Below, piece after piece: positions 28,293-58,737 of a DNA stretch of 64,000 bases; the stretch's first letter is position 1; the number at the start of each line of letters is the position of its first letter. This DNA comes from Candidatus Izemoplasmatales bacterium (GTDB lineage Bacteria > Bacillota_I > Bacilli_A > Izemoplasmatales > Hujiaoplasmataceae): positions 46,924-110,923 of the forward strand of contig JAQVVR010000006.1 of assembly GCA_028698875.1 (NCBI GenBank), given 5' to 3'. The position numbers were made by a program, and so were the translations under genes. Under the pieces are notes generated by a model. The model was not told where the DNA came from. It did no database searches and saw nothing but the letters and a program-made list of their open reading frames with translations.

Positions 28293-31200
28293 ATGAAGTT
28301 GAATTTTGGGATTGCCAAACAAAAAATTCATCAATTCCGCGAAAAAGCATCCGCGTGGATCACGGATATTTTTTTAAGTCCTAAAAAAACCTTTTTGTTT
28401 TTAGGAATATTTGTCTTTACTATTTTGTTCTTGATTCAAATTACCATCATATTAATTAGTAACTCGTTTTATAACGGCGGGTCCGATGATGTTTGTCAGT
28501 ATTATCCGATTATGAATGACTTCATCCTGAAAATCAAAACCCAAACCTTATCTTTTTATAATCTTAATAATTATCTTGGAGCTTCCTTATTTTCAGATGC
28601 ATATTATGTGCCACTCGATATCTTTACTTTGATTACTTTTCTGCTAAGTTACTTGATGCCCATCGGCGTTGCCATCTCGTCAACGGAATTAATTAAAGCC
28701 TTAGCTGGGGTTATGGTTCTTGCCTACTATTTCTATTTAAAAGGCATGAAAAACCGGACTATTTTTTGGATGGGAGTTATATATCTTATCAGTGGTGGAT
28801 CGGGCTGCTTTATGGCCTTTCCCGCCTTTTTTTCACTGATATTCTATCTGCCAACCTCATTACTAGTTATTTATTGGTTTCAACACAAGAAAGCATGGGT
28901 TGTGCCACTATTTGTGGTTGTACTTGTTTTTTATAATTTTTATTGTGCCTATATGGCCATTGCGTTTATGTCAGTTCTTTATGTAATTGAGGCTTTGAAA
29001 AAACCAAATTCTAATATATGGGTTTTTCTTCGCGATGGACTTGCTTTTTTGGGTTTGATTCTCTTGGGTGTGGCGATGTCATGTGTTATGCTGGTTCCCA
29101 CAGTACAGTTTATCATGGAAAGCACCGAGCGATCGGCGGGAGCGGCATGGCAATGGGCTGTCACAATCGGGGAATGGAATTTGACTTTGTTTAAGCCAGA
29201 AATATATATCCGGATTTTGACCAAAGCTTTTACTGCGCAGCGATCAGTGGGTTTTTTGGGCTTCTTGGGACCGGGATATTATGGTTACGAGCATGTATCC
29301 TTATATATTTCTTTGGTTGGAATCACAATCATGTCATATGTTTTTTTCATGCGCGACAGAATCAGTTGGATTTATAAAACTGTCATTATTGCCTTTTCAA
29401 TTATGATGATTTTCCCCTTTTTTTCCTATATATTTTCAGGAACGGAATATTTAATTGATGTTCCTTATACGCGGTGGATTGATACACTCCCGTTGTTAGA
29501 AATTGTTATATTGGCCCATGTGTTTGACAAATATGGTTTTGAAAACCTCAAAATGAAATGGTTGACAATCCCAATTGGATTATCATTGGCTTTGCTTGGA
29601 TATTTAATTTATTACTACTACATAAAACTAACAACCACAACTTTGTATGCAAAAGAAGCTTTAACCGCTGACGCCGTTTTTCTTGGATTGGCGGCTTTAT
29701 ACTTAGTCTTAATTTTAATATTCGGCTGGGTTAAACGCTTAAAATGGATTCGGGTTATTTTTTGGGTTGAATTCATTGTTGCAATGGGATATATGTATGG
29801 CATTGCCTATTATGTTCCTGACAAAATCACAATGTTTAATGACATGGAATCAATCAACGAATTTTTAAATGAAAACCTAGATCAAGACCAATTCTATCGA
29901 GTATATGTTGACGTCGAAAGATTCAACGTTCAAGACGAGAACTTTAACCGCATGACAACCTTTTACACCAACACGTTAAAAATATTCCATTCGTGGTCAG
30001 ATTCTGAAAGCGATCAACTCGTCACCTTACTTTTTAGTAACGAAACATATAGCGGTGATATAACCAAAAAAATTGAAACTCAAGAAAAAACGGCATTAAA
30101 CATCTTCACCTTGTATTTAAATCACGTGCTAGGATACAAGTATTTGCTTGTTAACGCGGAATACGAATATAATTTACCAGAAGCTTATTTCACACTTATT
30201 GAGCCAATAGAAATAAGCAATCGATACAAACTATATGAAATTGTCGACTCAGAACCATTTCAAGTATATGAATCTTATATGACATATGAAGACTTTATAA
30301 CATATGCAAGCAAACAATACACGGAAACACATAATCATTTATACGACAATAAAATTGCCGCTCAGAAACTGATGTTAGACACTGTTTTAATTGATGCGGA
30401 ATTATATGATATGAATTCGTCATCGGCACCGAATTTAAACAACGTAGTTACAGAGGACAATATCAGCGAGAAAAAAACCGTCACATCATATAAGATAATT
30501 TCGGCAGCTACAGAAGCCAACGTTTTAGGAAAGACCTTTTATCGATACGCAATTAATGTTGGGTTTACTTCGGGCGGACTGTATTTAAAGTCGTCCCAAT
30601 TAGACGATGAGGATTACGGAGAGGTTTTCATGGAGTTTGCATCTGGACAGACGCAAGCGTGTGAACTAACCCCAAACGCTTTTCAAGAAGTCGAATGCGG
30701 GCAGTTCTTTTCCGAACCGGTTGCCGTTTATTTTGAGCAGACGGATGGCTTTAATTCACCTAAAAGTATTACTTATCGTTTGGAAAGAGCAATCGGTCAA
30801 ACTTCTTTTTTAGTTTATGATATGCCAGAAATTTCGACAACCGAAATCAATGGATTTTTACGACTTTCCTTCACAAAAACACTCGATCGCGTTTTTGTCG
30901 TGGATACCAACGGAAACGAATACGAGAGTTTGAAGGGCAGTTGCTTTATTGAAAGCCAACCAGCAAGAGCATATATTTTAAAAACAGCAGAAATGTATGG
31001 TTCCAGCGCAGATGTATTCTCGATGATTTTGACCTTTGATTATGTGGATTTGAGTTATTATGATGATTTTGCTGACTCACAACTATCCGAAAACGAACAA
31101 TTAACCATTGAAAATGGAATAATTGATTTTTCATATACTCGTACCAGCGAAACCGGATATGATCAAATTGTCATGATTCCAATTACTTACTCTGAAGAGT

Positions 31201-31478
31201 GGATTGTTACCTCAGAAGAACAATATCAAACGCTAAGTGTTTCGGGAGGATTATTAGGAATTATCATCCCCGCCGGCGTCGATGAGGTTCATGTCACAAT
31301 GAAGTTTGTTCCCAACGGAATCATCGATGGCGGCTGGGCAACACTTATTGCCGTTGGGATATATACCGCAATTTTTTTGCCAATTTATTTAGTAAGAATT
31401 AATAAAAAGAAAAAAGCATTATCAAACACGGAGGTAATCGAAAATGAAACAACTGACAATCATAATCCCAGCTTATAA
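28293..31478 (+). CDS. yfhO: YfhO-family polytopic membrane glycosyltransferase (GT-C-like) with a large extracytoplasmic C-terminal domain
   Basis: About 13 TM segments at the N-terminus, an ~450-aa soluble domain, and a C-terminal TM. Paired with csbB-like GT2 and gtrA-like genes as in the B. subtilis csbB-yfhO operon. Confidence 0.75.
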   Translation: MKLNFGIAKQKIHQFREKASAWITDIFLSPKKTFLFLGIFVFTILFLIQITIILISNSFYNGGSDDVCQYYPIMNDFILKIKTQTLSFYNLNNYLGASLFSDAYYVPLDIFTLITFLLSYLMPIGVAISSTELIKALAGVMVLAYYFYLKGMKNRTIFWMGVIYLISGGSGCFMAFPAFFSLIFYLPTSLLVIYWFQHKKAWVVPLFVVVLVFYNFYCAYMAIAFMSVLYVIEALKKPNSNIWVFLRDGLAFLGLILLGVAMSCVMLVPTVQFIMESTERSAGAAWQWAVTIGEWNLTLFKPEIYIRILTKAFTAQRSVGFLGFLGPGYYGYEHVSLYISLVGITIMSYVFFMRDRISWIYKTVIIAFSIMMIFPFFSYIFSGTEYLIDVPYTRWIDTLPLLEIVILAHVFDKYGFENLKMKWLTIPIGLSLALLGYLIYYYYIKLTTTTLYAKEALTADAVFLGLAALYLVLILIFGWVKRLKWIRVIFWVEFIVAMGYMYGIAYYVPDKITMFNDMESINEFLNENLDQDQFYRVYVDVERFNVQDENFNRMTTFYTNTLKIFHSWSDSESDQLVTLLFSNETYSGDITKKIETQEKTALNIFTLYLNHVLGYKYLLVNAEYEYNLPEAYFTLIEPIEISNRYKLYEIVDSEPFQVYESYMTYEDFITYASKQYTETHNHLYDNKIAAQKLMLDTVLIDAELYDMNSSSAPNLNNVVTEDNISEKKTVTSYKIISAATEANVLGKTFYRYAINVGFTSGGLYLKSSQLDDEDYGEVFMEFASGQTQACELTPNAFQEVECGQFFSEPVAVYFEQTDGFNSPKSITYRLERAIGQTSFLVYDMPEISTTEINGFLRLSFTKTLDRVFVVDTNGNEYESLKGSCFIESQPARAYILKTAEMYGSSADVFSMILTFDYVDLSYYDDFADSQLSENEQLTIENGIIDFSYTRTSETGYDQIVMIPITYSEEWIVTSEEQYQTLSVSGGLLGIIIPAGVDEVHVTMKFVPNGIIDGGWATLIAVGIYTAIFLPIYLVRINKKKKALSNTEVIENETTDNHNPSL

Positions 31479-32382
31479 CGAAGAAACTAACATTCGCCCT
31501 TTTTATGATGAAGCATGCAAATATCTTACTAATCCGGAATATGAATTCAAACTACTTTTTATCAATGATGGATCTCGTGATGATACACTTGCCGAGATAA
31601 AAAAAATTGCGGCCATTGATAAGCGGGTTATATTCCTAAGTTTTTCGCGGAATTTTGGAAAAGAATCAGCGATGCATGCAGGGTTGGAATATTCCCGCAA
31701 AGATGATGCGATTATCATCATTGATTGTGATTTGCAACAACCGCCGTCTTTGATTCCGGAAATGCTCAAATGGTATAGCGAAGGTTATAAAGTCGTGTAC
31801 ACGCGCGGAAAAACCAGAAAAGGAGAACCGAAAGTTAGAACGTTGTTCGCCAATCTATATTACGGATTGTATAATAAATACAGCGATCGTCCCCTTGATA
31901 ACGGAGCCAAAGACTTTCAATTGCTTGACAAACAAGTAGTTGAAGCGATTTTATCGATAAAAGACAATTTTCGGTTTATGAAAGGGCTGTTCTCCTGGGT
32001 TGGGTTCAAACGGAAAGTGTTAGAATACGATTTCATTGCTCGGAAAAATGGCAAAAGCAGTTGGAGTTTTAAATCGTTGTTTAAATATGGGTTTGATGGG
32101 ATGAATCAATTTTCGAATATTTTGATGGTTCTCCCAGTGGTTTCTTTTGTTATGGGTATAATCATGCTCGGAGTAAACATTGTTTTTCGGATTGTGTATA
32201 TCTTCTCGACAACATCATTTATGTTAGCCCTATTACTAAATTTGCTTTGGTTGATGATTTCAGTACTGGCATATGGAATGTTTTACTTGTTATATCAAAT
32301 TCGTCGGCAGACACTAAATAGACCTCTATATTTAATTGAAGAAACCTCTGAAGAGGTAAACTATGATGAATCTTTGGAATAG
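31444..32382 (+). CDS. csbB: Polyprenyl-phosphate glycosyltransferase, GT2 family (CsbB/GtrB-like)
   Basis: IIIPAYNEE...NDGSRDDT...DCDLQ GT-A motifs plus two C-terminal TMs. Overlaps the yfhO 3' end by 35 nt. Confidence 0.85.
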   Translation: MKQLTIIIPAYNEETNIRPFYDEACKYLTNPEYEFKLLFINDGSRDDTLAEIKKIAAIDKRVIFLSFSRNFGKESAMHAGLEYSRKDDAIIIIDCDLQQPPSLIPEMLKWYSEGYKVVYTRGKTRKGEPKVRTLFANLYYGLYNKYSDRPLDNGAKDFQLLDKQVVEAILSIKDNFRFMKGLFSWVGFKRKVLEYDFIARKNGKSSWSFKSLFKYGFDGMNQFSNILMVLPVVSFVMGIIMLGVNIVFRIVYIFSTTSFMLALLLNLLWLMISVLAYGMFYLLYQIRRQTLNRPLYLIEETSEEVNYDESLE

Positions 32383-32860
32383 AATCAGGCATTTTATAAA
32401 AGACAAATTTTTGACCAAAAAATTCCTCAGTTTTGGTATTATTGGCATTGTTAATACGGGAATGCACATGTTGGCGTATTGGATCTGTTATGATCTTGTC
32501 AACTTGGGAACACTTGCCCTTGGATGGGGGGCGTTTGTGTCGAATACGGTCGCTTTTTTAGTGGCATCAATCTTTTCGTATTTTGCCAACGTCATTTTTA
32601 CATTCAAGCCCACCGCGACATCAACCAAACAATTCTCGGTGGTAATGCTTATTTTTTTAATCCGGCTTTTATTAAGCAATTTATTGACTTCGGTATTTGA
32701 TATCATTGTTATCGATTGGTTTCACGCTGATTACAGTGTAAATCCTTGGATGACTATTATTGCCCCGTTTTTTGCATCGGCACTGTTGTTTCCAATCGCA
32801 TATTTAATTCTCGAATATGTTTTTAAAAAAACCGATTGTAAAAAAACCGAGACGAAATAG
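32363..32860 (+). CDS. gtrA: GtrA-family small membrane protein (putative lipid-linked sugar flippase component)
   Basis: About 165 aa, 4 TM, GtrA-like N-terminal pattern. Overlaps csbB by 20 nt. Confidence 0.7.
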   Translation: MMNLWNRIRHFIKDKFLTKKFLSFGIIGIVNTGMHMLAYWICYDLVNLGTLALGWGAFVSNTVAFLVASIFSYFANVIFTFKPTATSTKQFSVVMLIFLIRLLLSNLLTSVFDIIVIDWFHADYSVNPWMTIIAPFFASALLFPIAYLILEYVFKKTDCKKTETK

Positions 32861-32965
32861 CCTGTTCTTCTTCCATTCAAATGGAAAATATCGTACAATA
32901 TTGATGACTGTTTATTATAAATTCCCAGATTCATTTTGAATATAGACAGATTGGGTGGTGTGTAT

Positions 32966-33715
32966 ATGGGAAACTTTGAAATAATTGTTTTGGTCAGCTA
33001 CCTTTATGCAATATTTTTATTGGTACTTAGAGCAAAAGTCAGCCACAAAAACATTCGTTGGTTCAAAATTTTATTAGTGATGCTTTTTGTTGCCGCGTTT
33101 TATTATCTCATTGTCGACAGCACAACCTCTACCATAGCGTTAGCAGCTCGGATTATTGTTTTTATACCCCTTGGCTATGTAATCTTTGTTATGTTCATAA
33201 ATGAATTAACAACCATTTTTAAAAGAATGAAGTTCTTAAAAAAAAGATCGTTAAAAAATTGGAAAACCAATAATGATCTCGCTGCCAAATTAGGGGCCGC
33301 AATTGAATTTTTGGCGAGTCGGAAAATTGGCGCCCTTATTTCCATTGAACGCGATATAAAACTCTCTGGGTATGTAAACAAAGCCGTGATGATTGAAGCG
33401 CCCGTTTCCAGCGAGCTTTTAGCAACGATATTTGTGCCAACAACACCGCTCCATGATGGCGCTGTCATTATTCGGGATAACAGCATTTTATGTGCTAAAG
33501 CCTATTATCCATCGACAGCAAGAACTGATTTGCCATTGAAGTTTGGAACTAGGCATCGAGCGGCAATCGGTATTAGCGAGCAATCAGATGCCCTTACAAT
33601 TGTTGTTTCCGAAGAAACGGGATATGTCAGTGTAACAATTAATCGTCAAATAGATTACAATGTTAGTAAAGAAACTTTAAATTTGTACTTTGAAAAGTAC
33701 CTGAAGATTAAATAA
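32966..33715 (+). CDS. cdaA: Diadenylate cyclase CdaA (c-di-AMP synthase)
   Basis: Three N-terminal TMs plus a DAC domain (GALISIER, TPLHDGAVII, RHRAAIGISEQSDALTIVVSEETG). The 32936 ATG is also possible; 32966 has the better GGTGG spacing. Confidence 0.88.
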   Translation: MGNFEIIVLVSYLYAIFLLVLRAKVSHKNIRWFKILLVMLFVAAFYYLIVDSTTSTIALAARIIVFIPLGYVIFVMFINELTTIFKRMKFLKKRSLKNWKTNNDLAAKLGAAIEFLASRKIGALISIERDIKLSGYVNKAVMIEAPVSSELLATIFVPTTPLHDGAVIIRDNSILCAKAYYPSTARTDLPLKFGTRHRAAIGISEQSDALTIVVSEETGYVSVTINRQIDYNVSKETLNLYFEKYLKIK

Positions 33716-33740
33716 AGTGCGCAAGCACTTTTATTTTTCG
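33713..33740 (+). terminator. Rho-independent terminator after cdaA
   Basis: AAGTGCGCAAGCACTTTTATTTTT. Confidence 0.7.
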
Positions 33741-33809
33741 TGAGATGGTATTATTCAGGGGAATATGTTATAATTTATAAAGACAATCGCCCGAAAAGAG
33801 GTGCCAAAA

Positions 33810-36161
33810 ATGGAACATTATGACGTTGTAGTTGTCGGAAATGATATCGGTTCGTTATCGACCGCCTTGTTTTTGGCACGAAAAATGCGGAAGGTTGCCT
33901 TGTTTCACGATACCGCTTCATTGACATCGAAAAAAGCGGCGGACGATTTTATTGATGTTAATAATCAAAAATATACCTTCAAATATGGACCGGGCGCTTC
34001 TGTTCCTGGGCTTAAAGAAGGGGGATTGCTATATCGATACCTACAACTTTTTAACATGGAAAATGAGATCAAATCAATCAATAAATTTTCGGATACTGTC
34101 GTTGATCGTGATGGGTCGCTATATACCCGGTCTTGGACACCAGAACAATTGCTTGTTTATTTAGTTAGACACTATCCAAAACAACGTGATGAAATACATC
34201 GCTTTTTTAAAGATATGGACCGAATGTATCATAATTTTATCATTCAGCAAGAAAACATGCTACAAAACCGAGACTATACTTTAACATCGCTGATGATCGA
34301 ATGGGGCGATTATAGTTTAAAACAGGTGCTTGATAAGTATTTTAACAATCAAGAACTAATCAGCGAGTTTTCTTTGTTTGATGCGGTAAACGGCCTTGAT
34401 TTGTCACAAGTGAATTCATATAACTTTTTCATGAGTTTCTTCGTTGGCTTGAACAACGGAGTTTCATATCTGTATGCCAACGAACAAGAAATCATGAAGA
34501 TGTTACTTGCAAAAATAACGGTGATTAATCCGAAACTGGTTCAAAATCGAAAGATTAAAAAAATAACTACGGACGATACCGGAAAAATTATCAAATTAGT
34601 TGATACCATGGGTAAAGATATCGTTGCTAAACATTATGTTTTTGCCGCAAGCCCACAAGAATTTTATCCCAAGTATTTTCCCACGCGGACAGCAGAACTT
34701 GAGGAGATTTTAAAGTATTATCCCAGTCTTGACAGCAAACGGCGAATTCAGACAGCATATATTTGTCTTAACCAAAAACCGGCAACTTGCGGCATCAACG
34801 AGTTGACCTATTATTTTAAGCCGGATCCGGAAACTAAAGTTCAATTAACACGAATGCTGAATTATAAAGTTTATGATCCGGAATCATGCGGAGCGAAAAA
34901 CGGGATTTTGGCAATTGATTTTGTCTATGACGACGGAGAAACAATCGATCTCAAACCGCTTTTAGATAAAGTTGTCGAAGCATTTCCAAAACTTGCAAAA
35001 TGTATTGTTGGGTCTTCCCTTGGCAAACCGCGAAAGTTCCTATCGATGCTTGCGGTTCCCGAAGTAAGAAAACAACTCTCGATTAATGAGCAAATCGCTA
35101 TAGAAGCAGGAGAACATATCAAGATATTCGACAATCTGTATTTGATTGGTGAATGGTTTCGTCCGGAAGCGGGCTTGTTTGGTATGTTTCATGCGGGAAT
35201 TCTGGATGGTGACACCATTGAAGAGCGGTTGTATTATGGTGAAGATGATGATGAATTTTACTATTTGACCAATGACGAAATCATGATGATGATGCGCCAT
35301 AATTATGGAAAAAAACCGCTTGGACCGAAAGAAACCCACGTGAATTTTCATATTGGCAAAAGTCATTATTTCGTACGAACTAAAGCCAAAAACATTACTG
35401 TTCACCGGGGAGAATATGCCGATCCAGATTTGACAATCTATTCTACCAACGACAAATTATCGAATCTATTACTTAAAAAAACCACGTTTGACGAGGTTTT
35501 AAAGAGCGGCGGTTTCAAATACAAGGGTAAAGAAGAAGATCTCTATGCGGCTATTAATGCGTTTAACCTAGATGATTATCATGAAGACGATAATCCAAGT
35601 CAATCCAAAACTAAAATCAAGTTTTTGGGCGTAAAATTTCTTTTTATTTATATTTTGATATGGGGTGTCATGGCCTTTTTAAGCAACTACTTGCCATTAA
35701 TTTGGTTGGCGCCGTTTGCTTATGGTTTAATTTTAATCACGTTATTTTTTAAATTACGAACATTTAAAAAAATCTCTTGGTTTGAAATCTATTTACTGAC
35801 GGTTGGTTTGGCGGTTCTTTTAATGGCAATTTTCTGGCCAACATTCAATAATCTGCTTCGCGACGATTATTTACTTGGCGCCTTTGCGTCGGTGTTTCTG
35901 GTTTCTTGGATTATTGACAAACCAATTGTACATGACTTCCATCAGTTTGACTACCGAAAGGACTACGCACAAACAGCACTATTTAAGGTCATTAATAATG
36001 GATTGACCTTAGTCTGGGCGCTCATCTTTGGAACAATTCTAGCTTTCACATATGTTACCGGAGAACGATATGTTTCAGTTTTATACAATTTGATTTTCTT
36101 AGGGTTCTTTCTCACCTATTTTTACCCAGTATTATATATTACAGCTAATATTAAGAAGTAA
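33810..36161 (+). CDS. Fusion protein: N-terminal NAD(P)/FAD-dependent oxidoreductase (phytoene-desaturase/amine-oxidase-like), SCP2-like sterol/lipid-carrier domain, C-terminal about 6-TM membrane domain
   Basis: DVVVVGNDIGSLSTALFLA dinucleotide fold. SCP2-like segment (HVNFHIGKSHYFV...DPDLTIYSTNDKL...GGFKYKGKEEDL). Hydrophobic C-terminus from about residue 600. RBS AAGAGGTG. Confidence 0.6.
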   Translation: MEHYDVVVVGNDIGSLSTALFLARKMRKVALFHDTASLTSKKAADDFIDVNNQKYTFKYGPGASVPGLKEGGLLYRYLQLFNMENEIKSINKFSDTVVDRDGSLYTRSWTPEQLLVYLVRHYPKQRDEIHRFFKDMDRMYHNFIIQQENMLQNRDYTLTSLMIEWGDYSLKQVLDKYFNNQELISEFSLFDAVNGLDLSQVNSYNFFMSFFVGLNNGVSYLYANEQEIMKMLLAKITVINPKLVQNRKIKKITTDDTGKIIKLVDTMGKDIVAKHYVFAASPQEFYPKYFPTRTAELEEILKYYPSLDSKRRIQTAYICLNQKPATCGINELTYYFKPDPETKVQLTRMLNYKVYDPESCGAKNGILAIDFVYDDGETIDLKPLLDKVVEAFPKLAKCIVGSSLGKPRKFLSMLAVPEVRKQLSINEQIAIEAGEHIKIFDNLYLIGEWFRPEAGLFGMFHAGILDGDTIEERLYYGEDDDEFYYLTNDEIMMMMRHNYGKKPLGPKETHVNFHIGKSHYFVRTKAKNITVHRGEYADPDLTIYSTNDKLSNLLLKKTTFDEVLKSGGFKYKGKEEDLYAAINAFNLDDYHEDDNPSQSKTKIKFLGVKFLFIYILIWGVMAFLSNYLPLIWLAPFAYGLILITLFFKLRTFKKISWFEIYLLTVGLAVLLMAIFWPTFNNLLRDDYLLGAFASVFLVSWIIDKPIVHDFHQFDYRKDYAQTALFKVINNGLTLVWALIFGTILAFTYVTGERYVSVLYNLIFLGFFLTYFYPVLYITANIKK

Positions 36162-36190: not shown

Positions 36191-37366
36191 ATGAGCGATA
36201 TCATGATTTACATCGCATTAGGAATGGGAATCGTTCTGATTGTGATGAGTACAGTCTTTTATCACAAGTTTCGAATTTGGAAATTGATATTGATTATACT
36301 TACCAGCGCTGCCTATGCATTTTTACGGTTGTTTCCAGAGATTGTGGACGTTTATATTCCCATCGATATGACAATTGAATGGTATGGGTATTATTTATTC
36401 TTAGTCGTCATTATTTTAGCTATCAATTTTAAATCAAAAATAAAAATCACCCAAAATTTAACTGATTATGACTTTTTTGAGATGGAAAAGGAACTTGACG
36501 AACTAAAATCAACTTCGGAATTATTGCGGCTTCGATACATTTCCACAATCGAATTGTTAAATGAAGGGATGCTTTTTTATAACGATACACTTGATGGTTT
36601 CTTTGCTAGCGAACAATTCGGCAGAATTACCGGAATAACAAAAAGTGATATGACTATCGATGAATATGTGACGTTGATTCATCCTGATGATCAAAACCAA
36701 TATCTGTCGACCATCAAAAAAGCAAACCGGAAAACGCCATCATTTGATATCAAATATCGCATCAGCCGCGAGGGAATATATGTCTGGGTTGAGGAAAAAG
36801 GGCGAGTTTTTGATTATGAAAAGAAATTACAAATTTTGTCATCGATTAAGGGAATAGATATCAAGTTATTCCCAGAAACCCTAATTCACGAGATTGACTC
36901 ACTTCCGACGGAACAACAACTTTTCCAATATTTATCGCAAATATCTAAAGAACCGGAGTCGTTTTATCTGATTATGATTCAATTGACCAATATTCCCGAC
37001 ATCAATTCGCGTTTTGGTCGTGATGTTGGCAATTTAATGATTGCGGAATATATTAAAAAAATGCGATTCCATTTTGCCAAGGATATCAATAGTATTTTTA
37101 GAATTACTGGTATCCAGTTTGCTTTAATCATTCGCGAACAGCGCAAATATGACGTTATGAACAGGGCTTTGCAAAGTGGTGGCGATCTAATCAATTTAAT
37201 GATTAATATTGGTGGCATCCAACAGGTCGTTTATCCTAATCTTGGGATCATTAAACACGAACCATGGTCAACCTATTCATTGTCGGAGTATGTTGGTTTT
37301 GCCAACAAAGCAATGGAAGAAGCAATTCGCAATCAAAAAAAGAATTATTCCGTTTTTGGCGAATAA
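36191..37366 (+). CDS. Membrane sensor protein: 3 TM + PAS domain + degenerate GGDEF domain
   Basis: The PAS region is LNEGMLFYNDTLDGFFASEQFGRITG. The C-terminal GGDEF-like fold has the GG(D/E)EF motif replaced by TGIQF (RITGIQFALII), so it is probably not an active c-di-GMP cyclase. Confidence 0.6.
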   Translation: MSDIMIYIALGMGIVLIVMSTVFYHKFRIWKLILIILTSAAYAFLRLFPEIVDVYIPIDMTIEWYGYYLFLVVIILAINFKSKIKITQNLTDYDFFEMEKELDELKSTSELLRLRYISTIELLNEGMLFYNDTLDGFFASEQFGRITGITKSDMTIDEYVTLIHPDDQNQYLSTIKKANRKTPSFDIKYRISREGIYVWVEEKGRVFDYEKKLQILSSIKGIDIKLFPETLIHEIDSLPTEQQLFQYLSQISKEPESFYLIMIQLTNIPDINSRFGRDVGNLMIAEYIKKMRFHFAKDINSIFRITGIQFALIIREQRKYDVMNRALQSGGDLINLMINIGGIQQVVYPNLGIIKHEPWSTYSLSEYVGFANKAMEEAIRNQKKNYSVFGE

Positions 37367-37440: not shown

Positions 37441-38097
37441 ATGTATACTGCATTGATTGTTGCCGCAGGCAGCGGTTCCCGAACTAAATTACCATTTAAC
37501 AAGATGTTCTATGAAATTAAAAAGAAACCGCTGATTATGTATTCAGTCGATCGGTTTTTAGCTGATTCGGATTGCGAAGAGGTTGTTATTGTTCACGCAA
37601 ATGTCGACGCTTCGCGAATGACTACATTAACAAAAAATATGGTAAAAATCAAGTTGACCGTCGGGGGCACAACTCGACAAGGAAGCGTTTATGCGGGGTT
37701 AAAACTTGCGAAAAGCAAATATGTATTAATTCATGATGGGGCGCGGCCTAACATCAGTAAAGCAAGTATCGACAATTTAAAGCGAGCAATGCTTGATCAA
37801 GGCGCGGCGACGCTTGCGATCCCGATTAAAGATTCATTGGTTACTGTTGAGAACAATTTTGTGACAGAATTTATCAATCGCGATACAACATATTTGGTTC
37901 AAACGCCACAAGCATTCCTTACCGAAGACATTCTTAAGGCTCATCTTTTAGCCAATAATTCGGGAACAGTTCATACTGATGATGTGTCCGTATATTTGGA
38001 TAAATTTAATAAAGAAGTTAAAATCGTGCTTGGCGACGAAGATAACATTAAAGTCACAACAAAAACCGATCTGCAACTTATGGAGGCCTTATTATGA
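37441..38097 (+). CDS. ispD: 2-C-methyl-D-erythritol 4-phosphate cytidylyltransferase
   Basis: IVAAGSGSR...P motif and IspD length. Confidence 0.88.
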   Translation: MYTALIVAAGSGSRTKLPFNKMFYEIKKKPLIMYSVDRFLADSDCEEVVIVHANVDASRMTTLTKNMVKIKLTVGGTTRQGSVYAGLKLAKSKYVLIHDGARPNISKASIDNLKRAMLDQGAATLAIPIKDSLVTVENNFVTEFINRDTTYLVQTPQAFLTEDILKAHLLANNSGTVHTDDVSVYLDKFNKEVKIVLGDEDNIKVTTKTDLQLMEALL

Positions 38098-38585
38098 TTA
38101 AAATTGGTTTTTCTAAAGACATTCACCCCCTTCAAATAGGGAGGCCATTTATCCTCGGGGGAATCAAAATTGAACACGATAAGGGACCGATTGGACACTC
38201 TGACGCTGATTGCTTATTACATGCAATTTCGGAAGCGTTGCTTGGCGCTTTAGCTTTAGGAGATTTAGGAAAATTTTTCCCTGATACCGAACCCAAATAT
38301 AAGAATTATGATTCGGCTTTGATTCTTCAGGAAATCTTCAATTACGTTGAAAGCAAAGGATATATGATTGGCAATTTGGATTGCATGGTTTCGCTTGAAA
38401 AACCCTTACTAAGACCATATATTGATGATATGCGTCGTCGTATTGCCGATATTCTTCGTACCGATATTGCGAGAATATCGATTAAAGCGACGACGTTCGA
38501 AGGTCTAGGAATTGTTGGGGAAGAAAAAGCCATAATTTGTGAAGCTGTCGTCTTGCTGGAAAACGATCTGATTTGGGGAATATAA
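38094..38585 (+). CDS. ispF: 2-C-methyl-D-erythritol 2,4-cyclodiphosphate synthase
   Basis: IGHSDADCLLHAISEALLGA metal-binding motif. 4-nt overlap with ispD. Confidence 0.9.
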   Translation: MIKIGFSKDIHPLQIGRPFILGGIKIEHDKGPIGHSDADCLLHAISEALLGALALGDLGKFFPDTEPKYKNYDSALILQEIFNYVESKGYMIGNLDCMVSLEKPLLRPYIDDMRRRIADILRTDIARISIKATTFEGLGIVGEEKAIICEAVVLLENDLIWGI

Positions 38586-38587
38586 CC

Positions 38588-38617
38588 GGCAGGACGAAAT
38601 TCGTCCTGTTTCTTTTA
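38588..38617 (+). terminator. Rho-independent terminator after ispF
   Basis: CAGGACGAAATTCGTCCTGTTTCTTTT. Confidence 0.75.
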
Positions 38618-39689: not shown

Positions 39690-39694
39690 ATAAC

Positions 39695-39918
39695 CAAATC
39701 AATGAACGGAGAAGTACGATGCTCGTTTGATCATAGCGAATGGGGAGATGGTGAAAGCCCCACGATCAGATCCATCGAAATAACACCGGGAGAGACGGAA
39801 GAACAAAGTAGAACCGTCCGCACATCTGCGTTAAAGATGCTGAGTGCCGAATATTATTTCGGAACAAAGGTGGTACCACGGTTGATAATCGTCCTTTTTT
39901 TGGACGATTTTTTATTTT
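39695..39918 (+). promoter_or_regulatory. T-box riboswitch leader, probable Asn (AAC) specificity, upstream of alkD-like + asnS
   Basis: Conserved T-box sequence AACAAAGGTGGTACCACGG (39862-39880) lies immediately 5' of terminator hairpin AATCGTCC-TTTTTTT-GGACGATT plus T-run (39885-39914). Upstream are GGTGAAAGC and GGGAGAG stem-I-like elements and a candidate specifier AAC in ...GAAATAACACC... ORF-track item 39678-39920 is this leader, not a gene. Confidence 0.65.
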
Positions 39919-39932
39919 AAGGAGGTGGAATA

Positions 39933-40634
39933 ATGTTGATTCTTGAAGAACTAAAAGCAGATCAACGGGTCAATAATGCAAACCCGCTGTCAAAATTTCA
40001 CAAAACCGGAGTTGGTGAATATCAACATGGGGATGTATTTTGGGATATTCCGATACCAAAGATTCGCCGCGTTGTCAAAAATCATTATCAGGATGTTTCG
40101 TATGACGATATCGATATTTTGCTGGCCTCGAATGTTCATGAAGTCCGTCTTTGTGGATTATTGATACTTACGGAACTGATGAAAACCATTAGCGACTCGC
40201 AAAAACCAAGACTAGTAAATTATTATCTTGAACACCTAGATCAGATTAATGGGTGGGATCTGGTTGATCTCTCGGCACCCGCCATCTTAGGGACATATAT
40301 TTATGAAGTCAAAGACAGCGGTATTCTTGATGTGCTTGCCAAGTCGGATAATCTTTGGCATCGACGCATAGCCATAGTTGCAACTTTGAAATTAATTAAA
40401 CATAATGAACTTAATCCAACGTATCGAATTGTTAAAAAACTCATTAATGATCAAGAAGATTTGATTCACAAGGCATGTGGATGGATGCTTCGGGAGGCCG
40501 GCAAGCAAAATCGACCACGATTGGATCACTTTTTACGAGACAATTATTCCCAACTCTCACGCACCACATTGAGATATGCAATCGAAAAACACGATGAATC
40601 AGAACGGAAAGCATTTTTGAAAGGGAACTTTTAG
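39933..40634 (+). CDS. DNA alkylation repair enzyme, AlkD/AlkC-like HEAT-repeat DNA glycosylase family
   Basis: About 230-aa all-helical protein with pfam DNA_alkylation-like spacing (WDLVDLSAP...[11 protein letters not shown]...ACGWMLRE). RBS AAGGAGGTGG. Confidence 0.7.
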
Positions 40635-40645
40635 GAGGGGTAAAG

Positions 40646-42034
40646 ATGGATATTACCATTAAAGAATTATATCAAAAATATTTAGAATCAGCGGGGAAAC
40701 ACGTTACAATCTCTGGCTGGATTCGTAACAGTCGAGCCCAAAAAGAGTTTGGATTTATTGATTTAAACGACGGATCGTTTTTTGAAACGATTCAAGTTGT
40801 ATATGAAGAAAACGAGGTATCAAATTTTAAGGACATTCAGAAATTTAGGGTTGGTTCCTCAATTACTGTCGAAGGAATTCTTTCCGTCACGCCCAACATG
40901 AAACAGCCATTTGAAATTAAAGCGACAATGATTACTTTGGTGGGAGACAGTCCAGAGAATTATCCGATTCAACCGAAACGACATTCTCGTGAATTTTTAA
41001 GAGAGAATGCGCATTTGCGGATGCGGACGAACCTATTTTCGGCTGTTTTTCGCGTCAGATCGGAAGTGTCTTATGCCATTCATAGTTTTTTCCATGACCG
41101 GAACTTTGTTTATGTACACACGCCAATTGTTACCGGCTCAGATGCAGAAGGCGCAGGCGAAATGTTTAAAGTGACTACGCTTGATATTGAGAAAATACTA
41201 CAAAGCGATGCCAAAGCCATTGATTATTCGAAAGACTTTTTTGGTAAGGCGACTAATCTAACGGTGTCGGGACAACTTCAAGTAGAAACATATGCGATGG
41301 CATTTCGCAATGTGTATACTTTTGGACCGACTTTTCGAGCGGAAAATTCAAATACGCAGCGCCATGCATCGGAATTTTGGATGATTGAGCCCGAAATCGC
41401 TTTTGCTGATTTACATGATGACATGCGGTTAGCTGAAGAAATGGTCAAATATGTTATTAGGTATATATTGGAACATTGTTCCAAAGAAGTCGATTTTTTC
41501 AATGATTTTGTCGAGAAAGGGCTGCGCTCTAAACTTGAGAAAGTAGTCAATTCTGATTTTCAAGTTGTCACTCATCATGATGCGATATCTATTTTGAAGG
41601 CAGCCAAGGAACAATTTGAAAATCAACCCGAATACGGAGAAGATTTAGCTACTGAACACGAAAAATACCTAACTAAATATTTCGATGGACCGGTGTTCGT
41701 CATAGACTGGCCAAAAGAAATTAAAGCATTTTATATGCGCGTTAACCCCGATGGAAAAACTGTCGCGGCGATGGATTTGCTTGTCCCCGGATCAGGTGAA
41801 TTGATTGGCGGATCACAACGCGAAGAACGACTTGATGTTTTAGAGAAAAAGATGCAAAACTTACATATCGACAAAAGTAATTATTGGTGGTATCTTGATT
41901 TGCGCAAGTATGGCGGATGCCCACATGCCGGATTCGGATTAGGACTGGAACGAATGATTATGTATGTTACTGGTATTGATAATATCCGTGATGTGATTCC
42001 GTTCCCAAGAACACCAAAGAATTGCGAGTTTTAA
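40646..42034 (+). CDS. asnS: Asparagine--tRNA ligase
   Basis: N-terminal OB anticodon-binding domain plus class IIb core ([38 protein letters not shown]). Confidence 0.9.
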
Positions 42035-57271: not shown

Positions 57272-58711
57272 ATGCTAAAAAAAATCTTTAGTGCAATGCT
57301 TGGCTTCTTGTTGGTTTTTGTGCTTATCGGCTGTCAGCCAACAGAGGTGGCCTTGCCAGATTTAACCGGGAAGTCACGTGCGCAAATTACGGAAACGCTC
57401 GAAGGACTTAATTTATCAATCAAATATTACTTTGATCTTTCAGTAATTTACGACGAAGAATCCGATTATGATAAATTTGTCCGTTATGGAAAAGACGAAA
57501 ATTCAGTGCAATTGGCTGTTGGTGATATTGTCGCTACCAAAACGGAAATCAAAGTATATACTACGCCACTTAATATAACAATTAACTATCTTTATTCGTT
57601 AAGCGATGCACTATCTTTACACGAAAGTGATTATACAGGGAAAGAATTCATCGCTGATGGTATCGGTGAAGTCACAATTTCCAAACTGGTTGATGGTGAT
57701 ACCACTTTTTTCCAAAGCGACGGGCAATCATATTCGGTCCGCTATCTAGGTATTGACACGCCAGAATCAACCGCTTTGTATCAAGCTTGGGGTAAAGCGG
57801 CCGCCACATATACCGCTGAAAAATTACAATCAGCCGAGAAAATCGTGTTGGAAGCCGAAGGCGATCGTCAAGACGGTAATGACCGTTATCTCGCTTGGGT
57901 TTGGTACCTTCCTGAGGGCGGCGATAAGTTCTTGTTATTGAATTTAGAACTTGTCGAATTAGCTTATTCAAAAAACAAAGTCTCAACTGGTAGTGTTTAT
58001 TCAGATGTTTTAACTTTGGCTGACTGGAATGCTTCCGCAACTAAACGGCGAGTGTGGGGAGAAATTGATCCTAATTACGATTATAGTAAAGAGGGCACCC
58101 AGATGACGATTGCGTTTTTAATGGAAAACTTCGCCGATTATATGGGCTTAAAGGTTGCCATTTCGGGAATTGTCACGGCCAAAATTGGCAATAGTGTTTA
58201 TCTTCAAGATGAATCAGGAGCGGGAATTTACATGTATGCCGGATATACCTCTTCATCCCAACTGCAGATAGGGGCGCATGTGGCAATTGATGGATTAACG
58301 CCAACAGTTTATAGTGGGAGTCCGCAACTAACCAATTTCAACCGGCTTAACCTATCTTTGGTGACCGAATCTTTGATAATTACACCGGAAGTAATCACTT
58401 ACGACGATTTTATTTTCACTAATATTGGCAAATATGTGACGATGAACCAGTTAACCGTCACTGGTGTCAATACTGCGAGAACAAGCATCTATGTTACCGA
58501 TATCGAAGACCATGAGTTTGTTATTAGAATTGATGACAGCACTGGTTTTGATGCGGACGATTTAGGCGTTACCGTTGGTCAAGTGTTAACTGTTACTGGT
58601 CCTCTCGGATATTATGACTATGATTACAATAATGTATTTGAGGGATATAATCACGCACCAAGTAAATTTCAGTTAATGCTCACAGCTAGCGACAACATAA
58701 TTATTGAGTAA
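57272..58711 (+). CDS. Thermonuclease (staphylococcal-nuclease-like, SNase) lipoprotein with C-terminal OB-like domain
   Basis: Lipobox LIGC|QP. SNase core VRYLGIDTPE...DRYLAWVWY retaining Ca-binding and catalytic Arg/Glu positions. The C-terminal VYLQDESGAGIYMY...GAHVAIDG module is shared with the next gene. Confidence 0.8.
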   Translation: MLKKIFSAMLGFLLVFVLIGCQPTEVALPDLTGKSRAQITETLEGLNLSIKYYFDLSVIYDEESDYDKFVRYGKDENSVQLAVGDIVATKTEIKVYTTPLNITINYLYSLSDALSLHESDYTGKEFIADGIGEVTISKLVDGDTTFFQSDGQSYSVRYLGIDTPESTALYQAWGKAAATYTAEKLQSAEKIVLEAEGDRQDGNDRYLAWVWYLPEGGDKFLLLNLELVELAYSKNKVSTGSVYSDVLTLADWNASATKRRVWGEIDPNYDYSKEGTQMTIAFLMENFADYMGLKVAISGIVTAKIGNSVYLQDESGAGIYMYAGYTSSSQLQIGAHVAIDGLTPTVYSGSPQLTNFNRLNLSLVTESLIITPEVITYDDFIFTNIGKYVTMNQLTVTGVNTARTSIYVTDIEDHEFVIRIDDSTGFDADDLGVTVGQVLTVTGPLGYYDYDYNNVFEGYNHAPSKFQLMLTASDNIIIE

Positions 58712-58737
58712 TAAAATTATTAAATAGGAGGAAATGT

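What the first reader, a model, noticed from the sequence alone, without database searches (positions are those of the whole stretch)
33810..36161. Novel domain architecture: FAD-dependent oxidoreductase + SCP2 lipid-carrier domain + polytopic membrane domain in one 786-aa protein
The N-terminus has a GxGxxG dinucleotide fold typical of phytoene-desaturase/amine-oxidase enzymes. The middle has an SCP2-like segment. The C-terminal 190 aa form about 6 TM helices. The gene sits 1.3 kb upstream of MEP-pathway genes ispD-ispF. In Acholeplasma-like organisms carotenoids are made via the MEP pathway and inserted into the membrane. This fusion could couple desaturation or oxidation of a lipidic isoprenoid or sterol to membrane delivery.
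Basis: inference. Interest (0 to 1): 0.6.

Follow-up and report, generated by a model that had tools for sequence, protein, structure and literature searches.

The report
Membrane lipid-handling protein, decayed flavin site
This is a real three-part membrane protein (oxidase-like domain, lipid-carrier domain, six-helix anchor) conserved across the wall-less Izemoplasmatales bacteria; it descends from an uncharacterised family of clostridial flavoenzymes but has lost the hallmarks of flavin binding, so it probably binds rather than oxidises a membrane lipid.

Summary
The ORF is real: ATG 33810 to stop 36161, 783 aa (not 786). It is full-length in more than 180 homologues, so it is not a frameshift artefact. 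A confident AlphaFold model and profile searches confirm three parts: a CrtD/CrtI/amine-oxidase-like domain (residues 1-476), an SCP2-type domain (488-586) and six TM helices (605-783).

Two claims fail. The "GxGxxG" reads G-N-D-I-G-S, and the architecture is not unique. Profile-profile comparison (probability 100%, E 6e-67, 744 columns) ties it end to end to about 55 clostridial clusters with the same three domains and canonical Amino_oxidase and SCP2 domains.

All Izemoplasmatales homologues lack the GG motif and have P-E-A-G where the canonical family has P-G-G-G. The window's clade also replaces the second fingerprint glycine with Asp/Asn. Only 5 of 26 canonical-invariant positions survive in the N-terminal FAD segment, against 11 of 20 in the TM domain.

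The gene appears co-transcribed with a degenerate PAS-GGDEF gene and ispD-ispF. The adjacency to cdaA looks like a synteny remnant. No carotenoid genes were seen.

Most likely function: a cofactor-less handler or sensor of a membrane lipid, possibly an isoprenoid. The function is untested. The TM domain matches no Pfam family or solved structure.

The parts
33810..36161 (+). Complete gene: 783-aa three-domain membrane protein (stop codon included)
   Evidence: ORF; identical NCBI protein and more than 120 full-length homologue clusters; SD AAGAGGTG 6 nt upstream of the ATG
33810..35237 (+). Residues 1-476: amine-oxidase / phytoene-desaturase (CrtD/CrtI/MAO)-like two-lobed domain with a remodelled cofactor site
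   Evidence: AF2 model; Foldseek PDB top hits 4rep, 1o5w, 5mog, 4dgk; hhalign to the canonical clostridial family
33837..33854 (+). Residues 10-15, G-N-D-I-G-S: degenerate dinucleotide-binding fingerprint (second Gly replaced by Asp)
   Evidence: Alignment A1; census of 183 sequences: D 128, N 21, G 29, Q 1
34140..34457 (+). Residues 111-216: helical lobe of the substrate domain; holds the most conserved stretch of the protein (DYTLTSLMIEWGDYSL)
   Evidence: Per-region conservation in the major clade: 35% of columns at least 90% conserved
35133..35183 (+). Residues 442-458, N-L-Y-L-I-G-E-W-F-R-P-E-A-G-L-F-G: altered C-terminal flavin motif (canonical W-T-x-P-G-G-G becomes W-x-R-P-E-A-G)
   Evidence: Alignment A3; P452 and E453 invariant in the family; canonical-invariant comparison
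35271..35567 (+). Residues 488-586: SCP2-type (Alkyl_sulf_C-like) alpha/beta lipid-binding domain
   Evidence: Pfam Alkyl_sulf_C E 5.5e-5 and SCP2 0.13, both below threshold; 37/44 relatives hit; homologues above threshold; clade profile vs 4nur E 5.7e-4; AF2 secondary structure
35622..36158 (+). Residues 605-783: six-helix membrane domain not described in Pfam; conserved cytoplasmic TM4-5 loop (D714, D718-Y719, LFK, NGLT, W736) and Y-Y-P near the C-terminus
   Evidence: Hydropathy; AF2 pLDDT 89.8; only 43 hits among 1.84 billion representatives; no PDB fold or sequence match and no Pfam family
33714..33731 (+). Terminator-like hairpin plus T-run directly after the cdaA stop
   Evidence: Scan; fold -8.7 kcal/mol, z -2.4
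33766..33774 (+). TGTTATAAT: extended -10 promoter-like element upstream of the gene
   Evidence: Read directly from the sequence; not reported by the two-hexamer scanner because the -35 region is poor
32936..33715 (+). cdaA (diadenylate cyclase), the conserved upstream neighbour
   Evidence: Pfam DAC 5e-38, TIGR00159 CdaA 2.5e-52; synteny
36191..37366 (+). Membrane PAS + degenerate GGDEF-like protein, 29 nt downstream; probably in the same transcript
   Evidence: Pfam PAS_3 and GGDEF; motif R-I-T-G-I-Q-F instead of GG[DE]EF, degenerate across the order
37441..38585 (+). ispD (37441-38097) and ispF (38094-38585), the end of the putative operon
   Evidence: Pfam IspD 3e-54, YgbB 3e-57; synteny
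38588..38610 (+). Strong terminator-like hairpin (10 pairs) closing the target-GGDEF-ispD-ispF unit

Best explanation
The gene encodes an integral-membrane, three-domain protein that is a core gene of Izemoplasmatales.

Shown: it is the end-to-end homologue of a clostridial family built as [CrtI/CrtISO/RetSat-like FAD oxidoreductase]-[SCP2]-[six-helix membrane domain]. In the Izemoplasmatales lineage the flavin site has been remodelled, and in the window's clade the dinucleotide fingerprint itself is destroyed (G-x-D-x-x-S).

Inferred: the protein no longer carries out FAD-dependent redox chemistry. It is a pseudo-enzyme that keeps the lipid-handling parts of its ancestor. The six-helix domain anchors it with the bulk of the protein in the cytoplasm. 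The conserved cytoplasmic TM4-5 loop and TM5-6, together with the SCP2 domain, take a hydrophobic lipid out of the inner leaflet. The strongly conserved helical lobe of the former substrate tunnel holds that lipid.

Inferred, weaker: the ligand is an isoprenoid lipid, such as a polyprenyl phosphate or another MEP-derived lipid. The protein acts as a carrier, presenter or sensor in membrane-lipid homeostasis, expressed from one transcript with a non-catalytic PAS-GGDEF membrane protein and IspD/IspF.
For: Reality and conservation: and 16 (103 species representatives, including complete genomes).

Fold.

End-to-end homology to the canonical tri-domain family: hhalign probability 100%, E 6.3e-67, 744 columns. 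The clostridial members score Amino_oxidase up to 3.6e-23 and SCP2 up to 1.6e-10, both above threshold.

Cofactor-site decay. The second fingerprint Gly is D/N/Q in about 150 of 183 sequences. The GG motif is absent and P-G-G-G is P-E-[AS]-G in all Izemoplasmatales. Only 5/26 canonical-invariant positions are retained in the N-terminal FAD segment, against 11/20 in the TM domain and 5/8 in the C-motif. The T-M-x-R-Y-T-N-N-x-G block is lost. The fingerprint Gly was lost at least 3-4 times independently inside the Izemoplasmatales superclade and never in the clostridial one, which is the pattern expected once the cofactor is dispensable. Only 9/44 family members hit any Rossmann/FAD Pfam model.

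Where constraint lies in the major clade: helical lobe 35%, SCP2 34%, TM4-5 loop plus TM5-6 30% of columns at least 90% conserved.

Modularity of the lipid-handling part: SCP2+TM recurs with FMN_red, with a second SCP2, alone, and TM recurs with an alpha/beta-hydrolase.

Isoprenoid lead: the closest solved folds and annotated relatives act on carotenoids or retinoids. There is apparent co-transcription and order-wide linkage with ispD-ispF. In the major clade a polyprenyl-phosphate-dependent YfhO-GT2-GtrA trio lies just upstream.
Against: No experiment exists, and loss of FAD binding is inferred from motifs only. The βαβ region is itself well conserved: 28% of columns are at least 90% conserved and Asp12 is fixed. 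It could therefore bind something else or bind FAD non-canonically. The HR1-type clade keeps GGGLGS plus F-E-E.

The ispDF linkage sits inside a long housekeeping synteny block (yutD, nifU, S1, pgi) shared by the whole order, so it may reflect inheritance rather than function. The clostridial homologues have no isoprenoid neighbours; their contexts are TetR, ArsR, LytTR or HAD genes. The ligand is unknown. The model coordinates could not be inspected for a tunnel.
Confidence: 0.5

Rival explanations
1. It is still an active flavoenzyme: a membrane-anchored desaturase, isomerase or saturase of the CrtI/CrtISO/RetSat type. It would bind FAD in a non-canonical way and modify an MEP-derived isoprenoid (carotenoid, squalene-type or polyprenyl lipid), with SCP2 feeding substrate from the membrane.
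For: The fold is intact and confidently predicted. The ancestral family is a canonical Amino_oxidase-type protein. The HR1-type clade retains GGGLGS and an acidic β2 end. The βαβ and C-terminal motif regions are still constrained, with invariant N442, P452 and G458. It appears co-transcribed with ispD-ispF.
Against: An Asp or Asn side chain sits where the fingerprint's second glycine must contact the pyrophosphate (established βαβ rule). The GG motif, E33 and R47 equivalents and the PGGG motif are lost. The fingerprint decayed repeatedly and independently. The window protein reaches no FAD or Amino_oxidase Pfam threshold. No phytoene or squalene synthase or other crt genes lie in the window or the inspected flanks. 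The Izemoplasma papers checked report no pigments or carotenoids.
Confidence: 0.25
2. It is a signalling component tied to cyclic-dinucleotide control. It would be a lineage-specific partner or regulator of the membrane diadenylate cyclase CdaA, taking the place of CdaR/GlmM in a wall-less lineage, and/or would work with the degenerate PAS-GGDEF protein. The lipid-binding domains would report membrane state.
For: cdaA lies upstream in essentially every Izemoplasmatales locus that reaches far enough, immediately so in most, and the PAS-GGDEF gene is always immediately downstream. All three are membrane proteins. cdaR/glmM are not next to cdaA here.
Against: In the sister ~770-aa clade the order is cdaA-glmM-glmS-target, so the adjacency is best explained by loss of glmMS from an inherited block. 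A terminator-like hairpin and a promoter-like element separate cdaA from the gene. Several HR1-type loci have about 0.7 kb of ORF-free DNA in between. The clostridial homologues are not near cdaA. There is no YbbR or other known CdaA-regulator domain.
Confidence: 0.08
3. It handles a non-isoprenoid hydrophobic molecule (fatty-acyl lipid, quinone-like or xenobiotic compound), and the link to ispDF is purely positional.
For: The clostridial homologues sit next to TetR- or ArsR-type regulators, typical of accessory or detoxification genes. The SCP2/Alkyl_sulf_C domains of the nearest solved relative bind alkyl chains. The Izemoplasmatales synteny block is largely housekeeping.
Against: The nearest sequence and fold relatives of the N-terminal domain are isoprenoid-polyene enzymes. 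Linkage with ispDF is kept down to 31-34% identity and across an insertion of MGS.
Confidence: 0.15
4. It is an artefact: a frameshifted or chimeric ORF joining separate genes.
For: None found.
Against: The same ~780-aa architecture occurs in more than 180 independent assemblies, including complete genomes. AF2 pTM of 0.83 for the whole chain.
Confidence: 0.01

Closest known systems
Clostridial 'FAD-dependent oxidoreductase' tri-domain family (e.g. [Clostridium] colinum P0212, uncultured Clostridium sp. 'Dehydrosqualene desaturase' P0185, P0147, P0203); uncharacterised
   Same: Same three domains in the same order and about the same length (780-819 aa). Homologous over 744 columns (hhalign probability 100%, E 6.3e-67). 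The TM-domain signature (E/D-Y...T-x-L-F...W...Y-P) is shared.
   Different: Only 18-20% identity. The clostridial proteins have canonical GxGxxG, β2 Glu, GGY and PGGG motifs and pass the Pfam Amino_oxidase and SCP2 thresholds; the window protein has none of these. The genomic contexts are unrelated.
Carotenoid desaturases and isomerases of the amine-oxidase superfamily (CrtD 4rep, CrtI 4dgk, plant PDS 5mog; CrtISO/RetSat-like COG1233 proteins)
   Same: Two-lobed fold of residues 1-476 (Foldseek E 1e-12 to 3e-14). The nearest stand-alone sequence relatives of the canonical clade are annotated phytoene desaturase family or all-trans-retinol 13,14-reductase.
   Different: 10-15% identity. No FAD fingerprint. 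Extra SCP2 and six-helix membrane domains. No neighbouring crt genes. No evidence of catalysis.
RabGDI / Rab escort protein (own knowledge; a lead, not tested)
   Same: Proteins with an FAD-oxidoreductase-type fold that do not use FAD and instead bind a prenyl lipid and extract it from membranes. This is the same kind of evolutionary repurposing proposed here. Faint PF00996 GDI hits occur on the clostridial homologues.
   Different: Eukaryotic, soluble, and bind prenylated proteins. No SCP2 or TM domain. No specific sequence relationship was shown.
SCP2-domain lipid presenters working with flavoenzymes or fused to lipid enzymes (UbiJ/UbiT in ubiquinone synthesis, MFE-2, SCPx; alkylsulfatase SdsA1/PSdsA C-terminal domain)
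   Same: An SCP2-type domain that shields a hydrophobic chain next to a catalytic domain. The clade profile hits the PSdsA SCP2-like domain (4nur, E 5.7e-4).
   Different: Here SCP2 is covalently sandwiched between an oxidase-like domain and a dedicated membrane domain. The role of UbiJ/UbiT is recalled from the literature, not tested here.

Membership tests
Amine-oxidase / phytoene-desaturase flavoenzymes (Pfam PF01593, CrtI/CrtD/CrtISO/RetSat) | Two-lobed FAD-binding plus substrate-binding fold | tested here: met
   AF2 pLDDT 88.7; Foldseek 4rep E 2.8e-14, plus MAO, PDS, CrtI, PPO; hhalign to canonical relatives
Amine-oxidase / phytoene-desaturase flavoenzymes (Pfam PF01593, CrtI/CrtD/CrtISO/RetSat) | Sequence match above the curated Pfam/NCBIfam thresholds | tested here: not met
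   Window protein: no Amino_oxidase hit; Pyr_redox_2 E 0.11; CrtD 16 bits against a cutoff of 550. Only 3/44 family members hit Amino_oxidase.
Amine-oxidase / phytoene-desaturase flavoenzymes (Pfam PF01593, CrtI/CrtD/CrtISO/RetSat) | N-terminal βαβ G-x-G-x-x-G/A/S dinucleotide fingerprint | tested here: not met
   G-N-D-I-G-S; position 12 is D/N/Q in about 150 of 183 sequences
Amine-oxidase / phytoene-desaturase flavoenzymes (Pfam PF01593, CrtI/CrtD/CrtISO/RetSat) | Acidic residue ending β2 (binds the ribose) | tested here: inconclusive
   The canonical E aligns with His34; Asp35 follows one position later
Amine-oxidase / phytoene-desaturase flavoenzymes (Pfam PF01593, CrtI/CrtD/CrtISO/RetSat) | GG motif after β2 and the C-terminal P-G-G-G flavin motif | tested here: not met
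   GGY is absent; the motif reads R-P-E-A-G instead of x-P-G-G-G
Amine-oxidase / phytoene-desaturase flavoenzymes (Pfam PF01593, CrtI/CrtD/CrtISO/RetSat) | Bound FAD and redox activity on a substrate | not testable with these tools
   Needs purified protein
SCP2 superfamily (PF02036 SCP2 / PF14864 Alkyl_sulf_C) | Sequence match above the Pfam gathering score | tested here: not met
   Window protein: Alkyl_sulf_C 23.8 bits (cutoff 27), SCP2 13.1 bits (cutoff 21.3). Met in homologues P0133, P0140, P0147, P0154 and P0160, which align over this region.
SCP2 superfamily (PF02036 SCP2 / PF14864 Alkyl_sulf_C) | Alpha/beta SCP2 fold and similarity to a solved SCP2-type domain | tested here: met
   AF2: helix, five strands and helices at 488-584. 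Clade profile hits 4nur residues 548-620 at E 5.7e-4, with 7tl5 and SCP2-like 2 next. 37/44 members hit Alkyl_sulf_C.
SCP2 superfamily (PF02036 SCP2 / PF14864 Alkyl_sulf_C) | Binds a lipid in a hydrophobic tunnel | not testable with these tools
Carotenoid biosynthesis gene cluster (crtM/crtN or crtB/crtI type) | Neighbouring phytoene/dehydrosqualene synthase or other crt genes | tested here: not met
   None in the 64-kb window or in the ±6 kb flanks of L001-L004 and L088. A genome-wide check was not possible.
Known CdaA partners (CdaR/YbbR, GlmM) | YbbR or phosphoglucosamine-mutase domains; dedicated operon with cdaA | tested here: not met
   No such domains. A terminator-like site and a promoter-like element lie between cdaA and the gene. 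glmM-glmS intervene in the sister clade.
Any described membrane-domain family for residues 605-783 | Match to a Pfam model or to a solved membrane-protein fold | tested here: not met

The most novel reading that the evidence does not exclude
An order-wide pseudo-flavoenzyme. A CrtI-like domain has lost its flavin and, together with SCP2 and a previously undescribed six-helix membrane domain, acts as a sensor or carrier of polyprenyl or other isoprenoid lipid. With the co-transcribed non-catalytic PAS-GGDEF membrane protein, it would couple membrane isoprenoid status to MEP-pathway expression or flux (ispD-ispF), or to c-di-AMP signalling, in wall-less bacteria. This would be a bacterial counterpart of the GDI/REP repurposing of an FAD fold for prenyl binding.
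Probability: 0.12. Interest if true: 0.7.

Novelty: new variant of a known kind. Interest (0 to 1): 0.42.

Why it matters
If the inference holds, this would be a clear bacterial case of a flavoenzyme fold turned into a cofactor-less lipid-binding module. [quoted passage not shown] It also defines a recurrent, unnamed SCP2 + six-helix membrane module that is combined with different redox or hydrolase domains. That module points to a general way of presenting membrane lipids to cytoplasmic domains. Neither family has a known substrate, so the practical value today is a well-delimited target for biochemistry, not a solved function.

Tried and rejected
(1) Frameshift or chimera: rejected, because the architecture is full length in more than 180 sequences.

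(2) Direct Pfam/NCBIfam assignment of the window protein: only sub-threshold hits. Sequence search of PDB with the protein or the whole-family profile gave only weak βαβ and SCP2 hits.

(4) A dedicated cdaA partnership: considered because of the universal adjacency. It was downgraded after finding cdaA-glmM-glmS-target in the sister clade and a terminator and promoter between the genes.

(5) An RNA element in the 0.7-kb ORF-free gap of HR1-type loci: no credible Rfam hit.

(6) Functional clues from clostridial contexts: variable and uninformative.

(7) Literature: nothing on this fusion, and nothing on carotenoids in Izemoplasma.

Full report
OBSERVATION. The ORF is real. The ORF listing gives 33801..36161 on the + strand, 786 aa from a GTG. 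That GTG lies inside a Shine-Dalgarno sequence (AAGAGGTG, 33796-33803) that sits 6 nt before the ATG at 33810, and all homologues begin at the corresponding Met. The protein is therefore 783 aa. An identical sequence is deposited as a hypothetical protein of a Candidatus Izemoplasmatales MAG. A further ~120 clusters of 777-800 aa align over 100% of the length at 33-88% identity. A scan of one genome per species found it in 103 species representatives. Essentially all of these are labelled Izemoplasmatales, Izimaplasma, Mycoplasmatota or 'Tenericutes', and they include complete genomes (B36, zrk2, WC30, HR2). A frameshift or chimera is excluded.

ANATOMY. AlphaFold2 run on a 44-sequence alignment gives a confident model of the whole chain (pLDDT 88.7, pTM 0.83). 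It has three parts.
- Residues 1-476 are a two-lobed alpha/beta domain. Foldseek against PDB places this domain in the amine-oxidase/phytoene-desaturase superfamily. The best hit is the gamma-carotenoid desaturase CrtD (4rep, E 2.8e-14), followed by MAO-A/B, putrescine oxidase, NicA2, plant PDS, CrtI and PPO, at 10-15% identity.
- Residues 488-584 are a small helix/five-strand/helix domain. It is an SCP2-type domain. Alkyl_sulf_C scores E 5.5e-5 in the window protein, just below threshold, and hits 37 of 44 relatives. A profile of the window's clade finds the SCP2-like C-terminal domain of alkylsulfatase PSdsA (4nur, E 5.7e-4).
- Residues 606-779 are six long helices, and hydropathy agrees with this.

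With no signal peptide and with basic residues after TM2 and at the C-terminus, the soluble domains and the conserved TM4-5 loop should face the cytoplasm (inference).

- Amino_oxidase + SCP2 + TM (P0140, P0147, P0154, P0160)
- FMN_red + SCP2 + TM (P0139)
- two SCP2 domains + TM (P0148)
- SCP2 + TM (P0143)
- TM + alpha/beta-hydrolase (P0145)
- stand-alone ~180-200-aa forms

SCP2 plus this membrane domain is therefore a recurring module with exchangeable enzyme-like partners.

NOT A UNIQUE ARCHITECTURE. Searching with P0147 recovered about 55 full-length clusters of 780-819 aa with precomputed Amino_oxidase and SCP2 domains. They come mostly from Clostridia and other Firmicutes, for example [Clostridium] colinum ('FAD-dependent oxidoreductase') and an uncultured Clostridium sp. 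('Dehydrosqualene desaturase'). Their nearest stand-alone relatives are ~495-aa 'phytoene desaturase family' proteins and, further out, RetSat-like proteins. A profile-profile comparison of the Izemoplasmatales alignment with a 15-sequence clostridial alignment gives probability 100%, E 6.3e-67, over 744 columns covering all three domains. The window protein is thus a divergent member (18-20% identity) of an existing but uncharacterised tri-domain superfamily. I found no paper describing it.

THE COFACTOR SITE HAS DECAYED. Those 29 form the clade that is 31-35% identical to the window protein and includes Izimaplasma HR1; they also keep F-E-E at the end of β2. Alignment with the canonical family shows that every Izemoplasmatales protein lacks the G-G-Y motif after β2 and has [RK]-P-E-[AS]-G where the canonical proteins have x-P-G-G-G.

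Of 133 positions at least 95% conserved among 56 canonical proteins, the window protein retains the following:
- 5 of 26 in the N-terminal FAD segment (the losses include G12, E33, G39-G40-Y41 and R47)
- 8 of 31 in the substrate sheet (the T-M-x-R-Y-T-N-N-x-G block is gone)
- 11 of 20 in the TM domain
- 5 of 8 in the C-terminal motif

A rough neighbour-joining tree indicates that the fingerprint glycine was lost at least three or four times independently within the Izemoplasmatales superclade: D/N in the major clade, T in P0157, N in P0130, and a scrambled motif in P0133. It was never lost in the clostridial superclade. By the established rule for βαβ dinucleotide folds, any side chain at this glycine obstructs the pyrophosphate, and an acidic one especially so. 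I infer that canonical FAD binding is lost in the window's clade and is probably dispensable in the whole order.

In the major clade the strongest constraint lies on the helical lobe (residues 111-216, 35% of columns at least 90% conserved), SCP2 (34%), the TM4-5 loop plus TM5-6 (30%) and the altered βαβ itself (28%). These are the ligand- and membrane-facing parts, not the parts that would carry out redox chemistry.

GENOMIC CONTEXT. The order cdaA - target - PAS/GGDEF - ispD - ispF holds in essentially every one of ~80 loci that extend far enough. This includes the 31-35% identity clade, where the upstream YfhO-GT2-GtrA trio is replaced by other genes. In the window, a terminator-like hairpin follows cdaA (33714-33731; -8.7 kcal/mol, z -2.4). 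An extended -10 element (TGTTATAAT, 33766-33774) precedes the gene. No terminator-like site lies at the gene junctions until a strong one after ispF (38588-38610). The likely transcription unit is therefore target-PAS/GGDEF-ispD-ispF.

The GGDEF neighbour is not an active cyclase. Its signature is [TSG]-G-I-x-F across the order. The cdaA adjacency is probably inherited, not functional. In a sister ~770-aa clade the order is cdaA-glmM-glmS-target-MGS-GGDEF-ispD-ispF-yutD-nifU-...-pgi. That is the classical cdaA-glmM block followed by a long housekeeping block, and the wall-less lineages appear to have lost glmMS from it. The clostridial homologues sit in unrelated, accessory-type contexts: a divergent TetR, an upstream ArsR-type regulator, a downstream LytTR protein plus a small ORF, or a HAD hydrolase. 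No crt or squalene-synthase gene occurs in the 64-kb window, which is otherwise housekeeping DNA near the origin (yidC, jag, mfd, recF, gyrBA and others). None occurs in the inspected flanks either. The Izemoplasma papers checked do not mention carotenoids or pigments.

INTERPRETATION. Three things are shown: a real, order-wide, three-domain membrane protein; its homology to a canonical flavoenzyme-SCP2-TM family; and its remodelled cofactor site. My preferred mechanism (confidence about 0.5) is that it is a cofactor-less derivative that keeps the ancestral lipid-handling apparatus. In this reading the membrane domain and SCP2 extract a hydrophobic lipid from the inner leaflet, and the former substrate lobe holds it, for transfer, presentation or sensing. 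An isoprenoid ligand is suggested by three lines of evidence: the substrates of the nearest relatives, the apparent co-transcription with ispDF, and (in the major clade) the nearby polyprenyl-phosphate-dependent glycosylation genes. This step is weak, because the linkage sits within inherited synteny and is absent in Clostridia.

Other rivals are handling of a non-isoprenoid lipid (about 0.15) and a CdaA- or cyclic-dinucleotide-linked regulator (about 0.08).

VERDICT. The 'novel architecture' claim is overstated, but the family is uncharacterised, its membrane domain is unnamed, and the decay of the flavin site in a core gene of a whole order is a real and testable oddity. Novelty: a new variant of a known kind. 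Interest: 0.42.

Noticed in passing
window 36191-37366 (+): Membrane-anchored PAS_3 + GGDEF-like protein whose GG[DE]EF signature is R-I-T-G-I-Q-F. The motif is degenerate ([TSG]-G-I-x-F) in every Izemoplasmatales locus examined, so it is not an active diguanylate cyclase. It is always immediately downstream of the target gene.
   Followed up: partly
window 39693-39899 (+), with genes 39933-40634 and 40646-42034: A T-box leader (RF00230, 106.9 bits) is followed first by a DNA-alkylation-repair-family gene and only then by a class II aminoacyl-tRNA synthetase. This is an unusual gene order behind a T-box.
   Followed up: no
window 28293-32860 (+): A YfhO - GT2 - GtrA trio, the polyprenyl-phosphate-sugar glycosylation machinery known from teichoic-acid decoration, occurs in a wall-less lineage. 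It lies directly upstream of cdaA in the major clade only.
   Followed up: partly
L088 1982-11478: A sister ~770-aa clade keeps cdaA-glmM-glmS directly upstream of the target homologue and has a methylglyoxal-synthase gene inserted before a longer (544-aa) GGDEF protein. This suggests the window's cdaA-target adjacency arose by loss of glmMS.
   Followed up: partly
L062 4278-5000 (also L061, L064, L067, L072, L079, L084): In HR1-type loci, about 0.7 kb (more in some loci) separates cdaA from the target. In L062, the one locus inspected, this stretch has no ORF of 50 aa or more and no credible Rfam match. It could be a decayed gene or an unknown regulatory region.
   Followed up: partly
proteins P0139, P0143, P0145, P0148: The unnamed six-helix domain also occurs as FMN_red+SCP2+TM, SCP2+TM, 2xSCP2+TM and TM+alpha/beta-hydrolase, and as stand-alone ~180-200-aa proteins. 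It behaves as a mobile SCP2/TM module.
   Followed up: partly
L085 2741-3633 and L094 9399-10273: Two clostridial homologues are each followed immediately by a small LytTR-domain protein (148 aa) and a ~145-aa ORF, a pair that resembles LytTR regulator/membrane-inhibitor systems.
   Followed up: no
window 57272-63741 (+): An SNase-domain protein is followed by a 1667-aa protein with aBig_2 and Lamin-tail domains. This may be a surface nuclease module, which would fit the DNA-degrading lifestyle reported for Izemoplasma (PMC8397711, PMC8289736).
   Followed up: no
window 32936-33715 (+): The mechanical cdaA ORF starts at a TTG and is 259 aa, whereas the called orthologues are 243-246 aa. The real start is probably the internal ATG about 10 codons downstream.
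   Followed up: no
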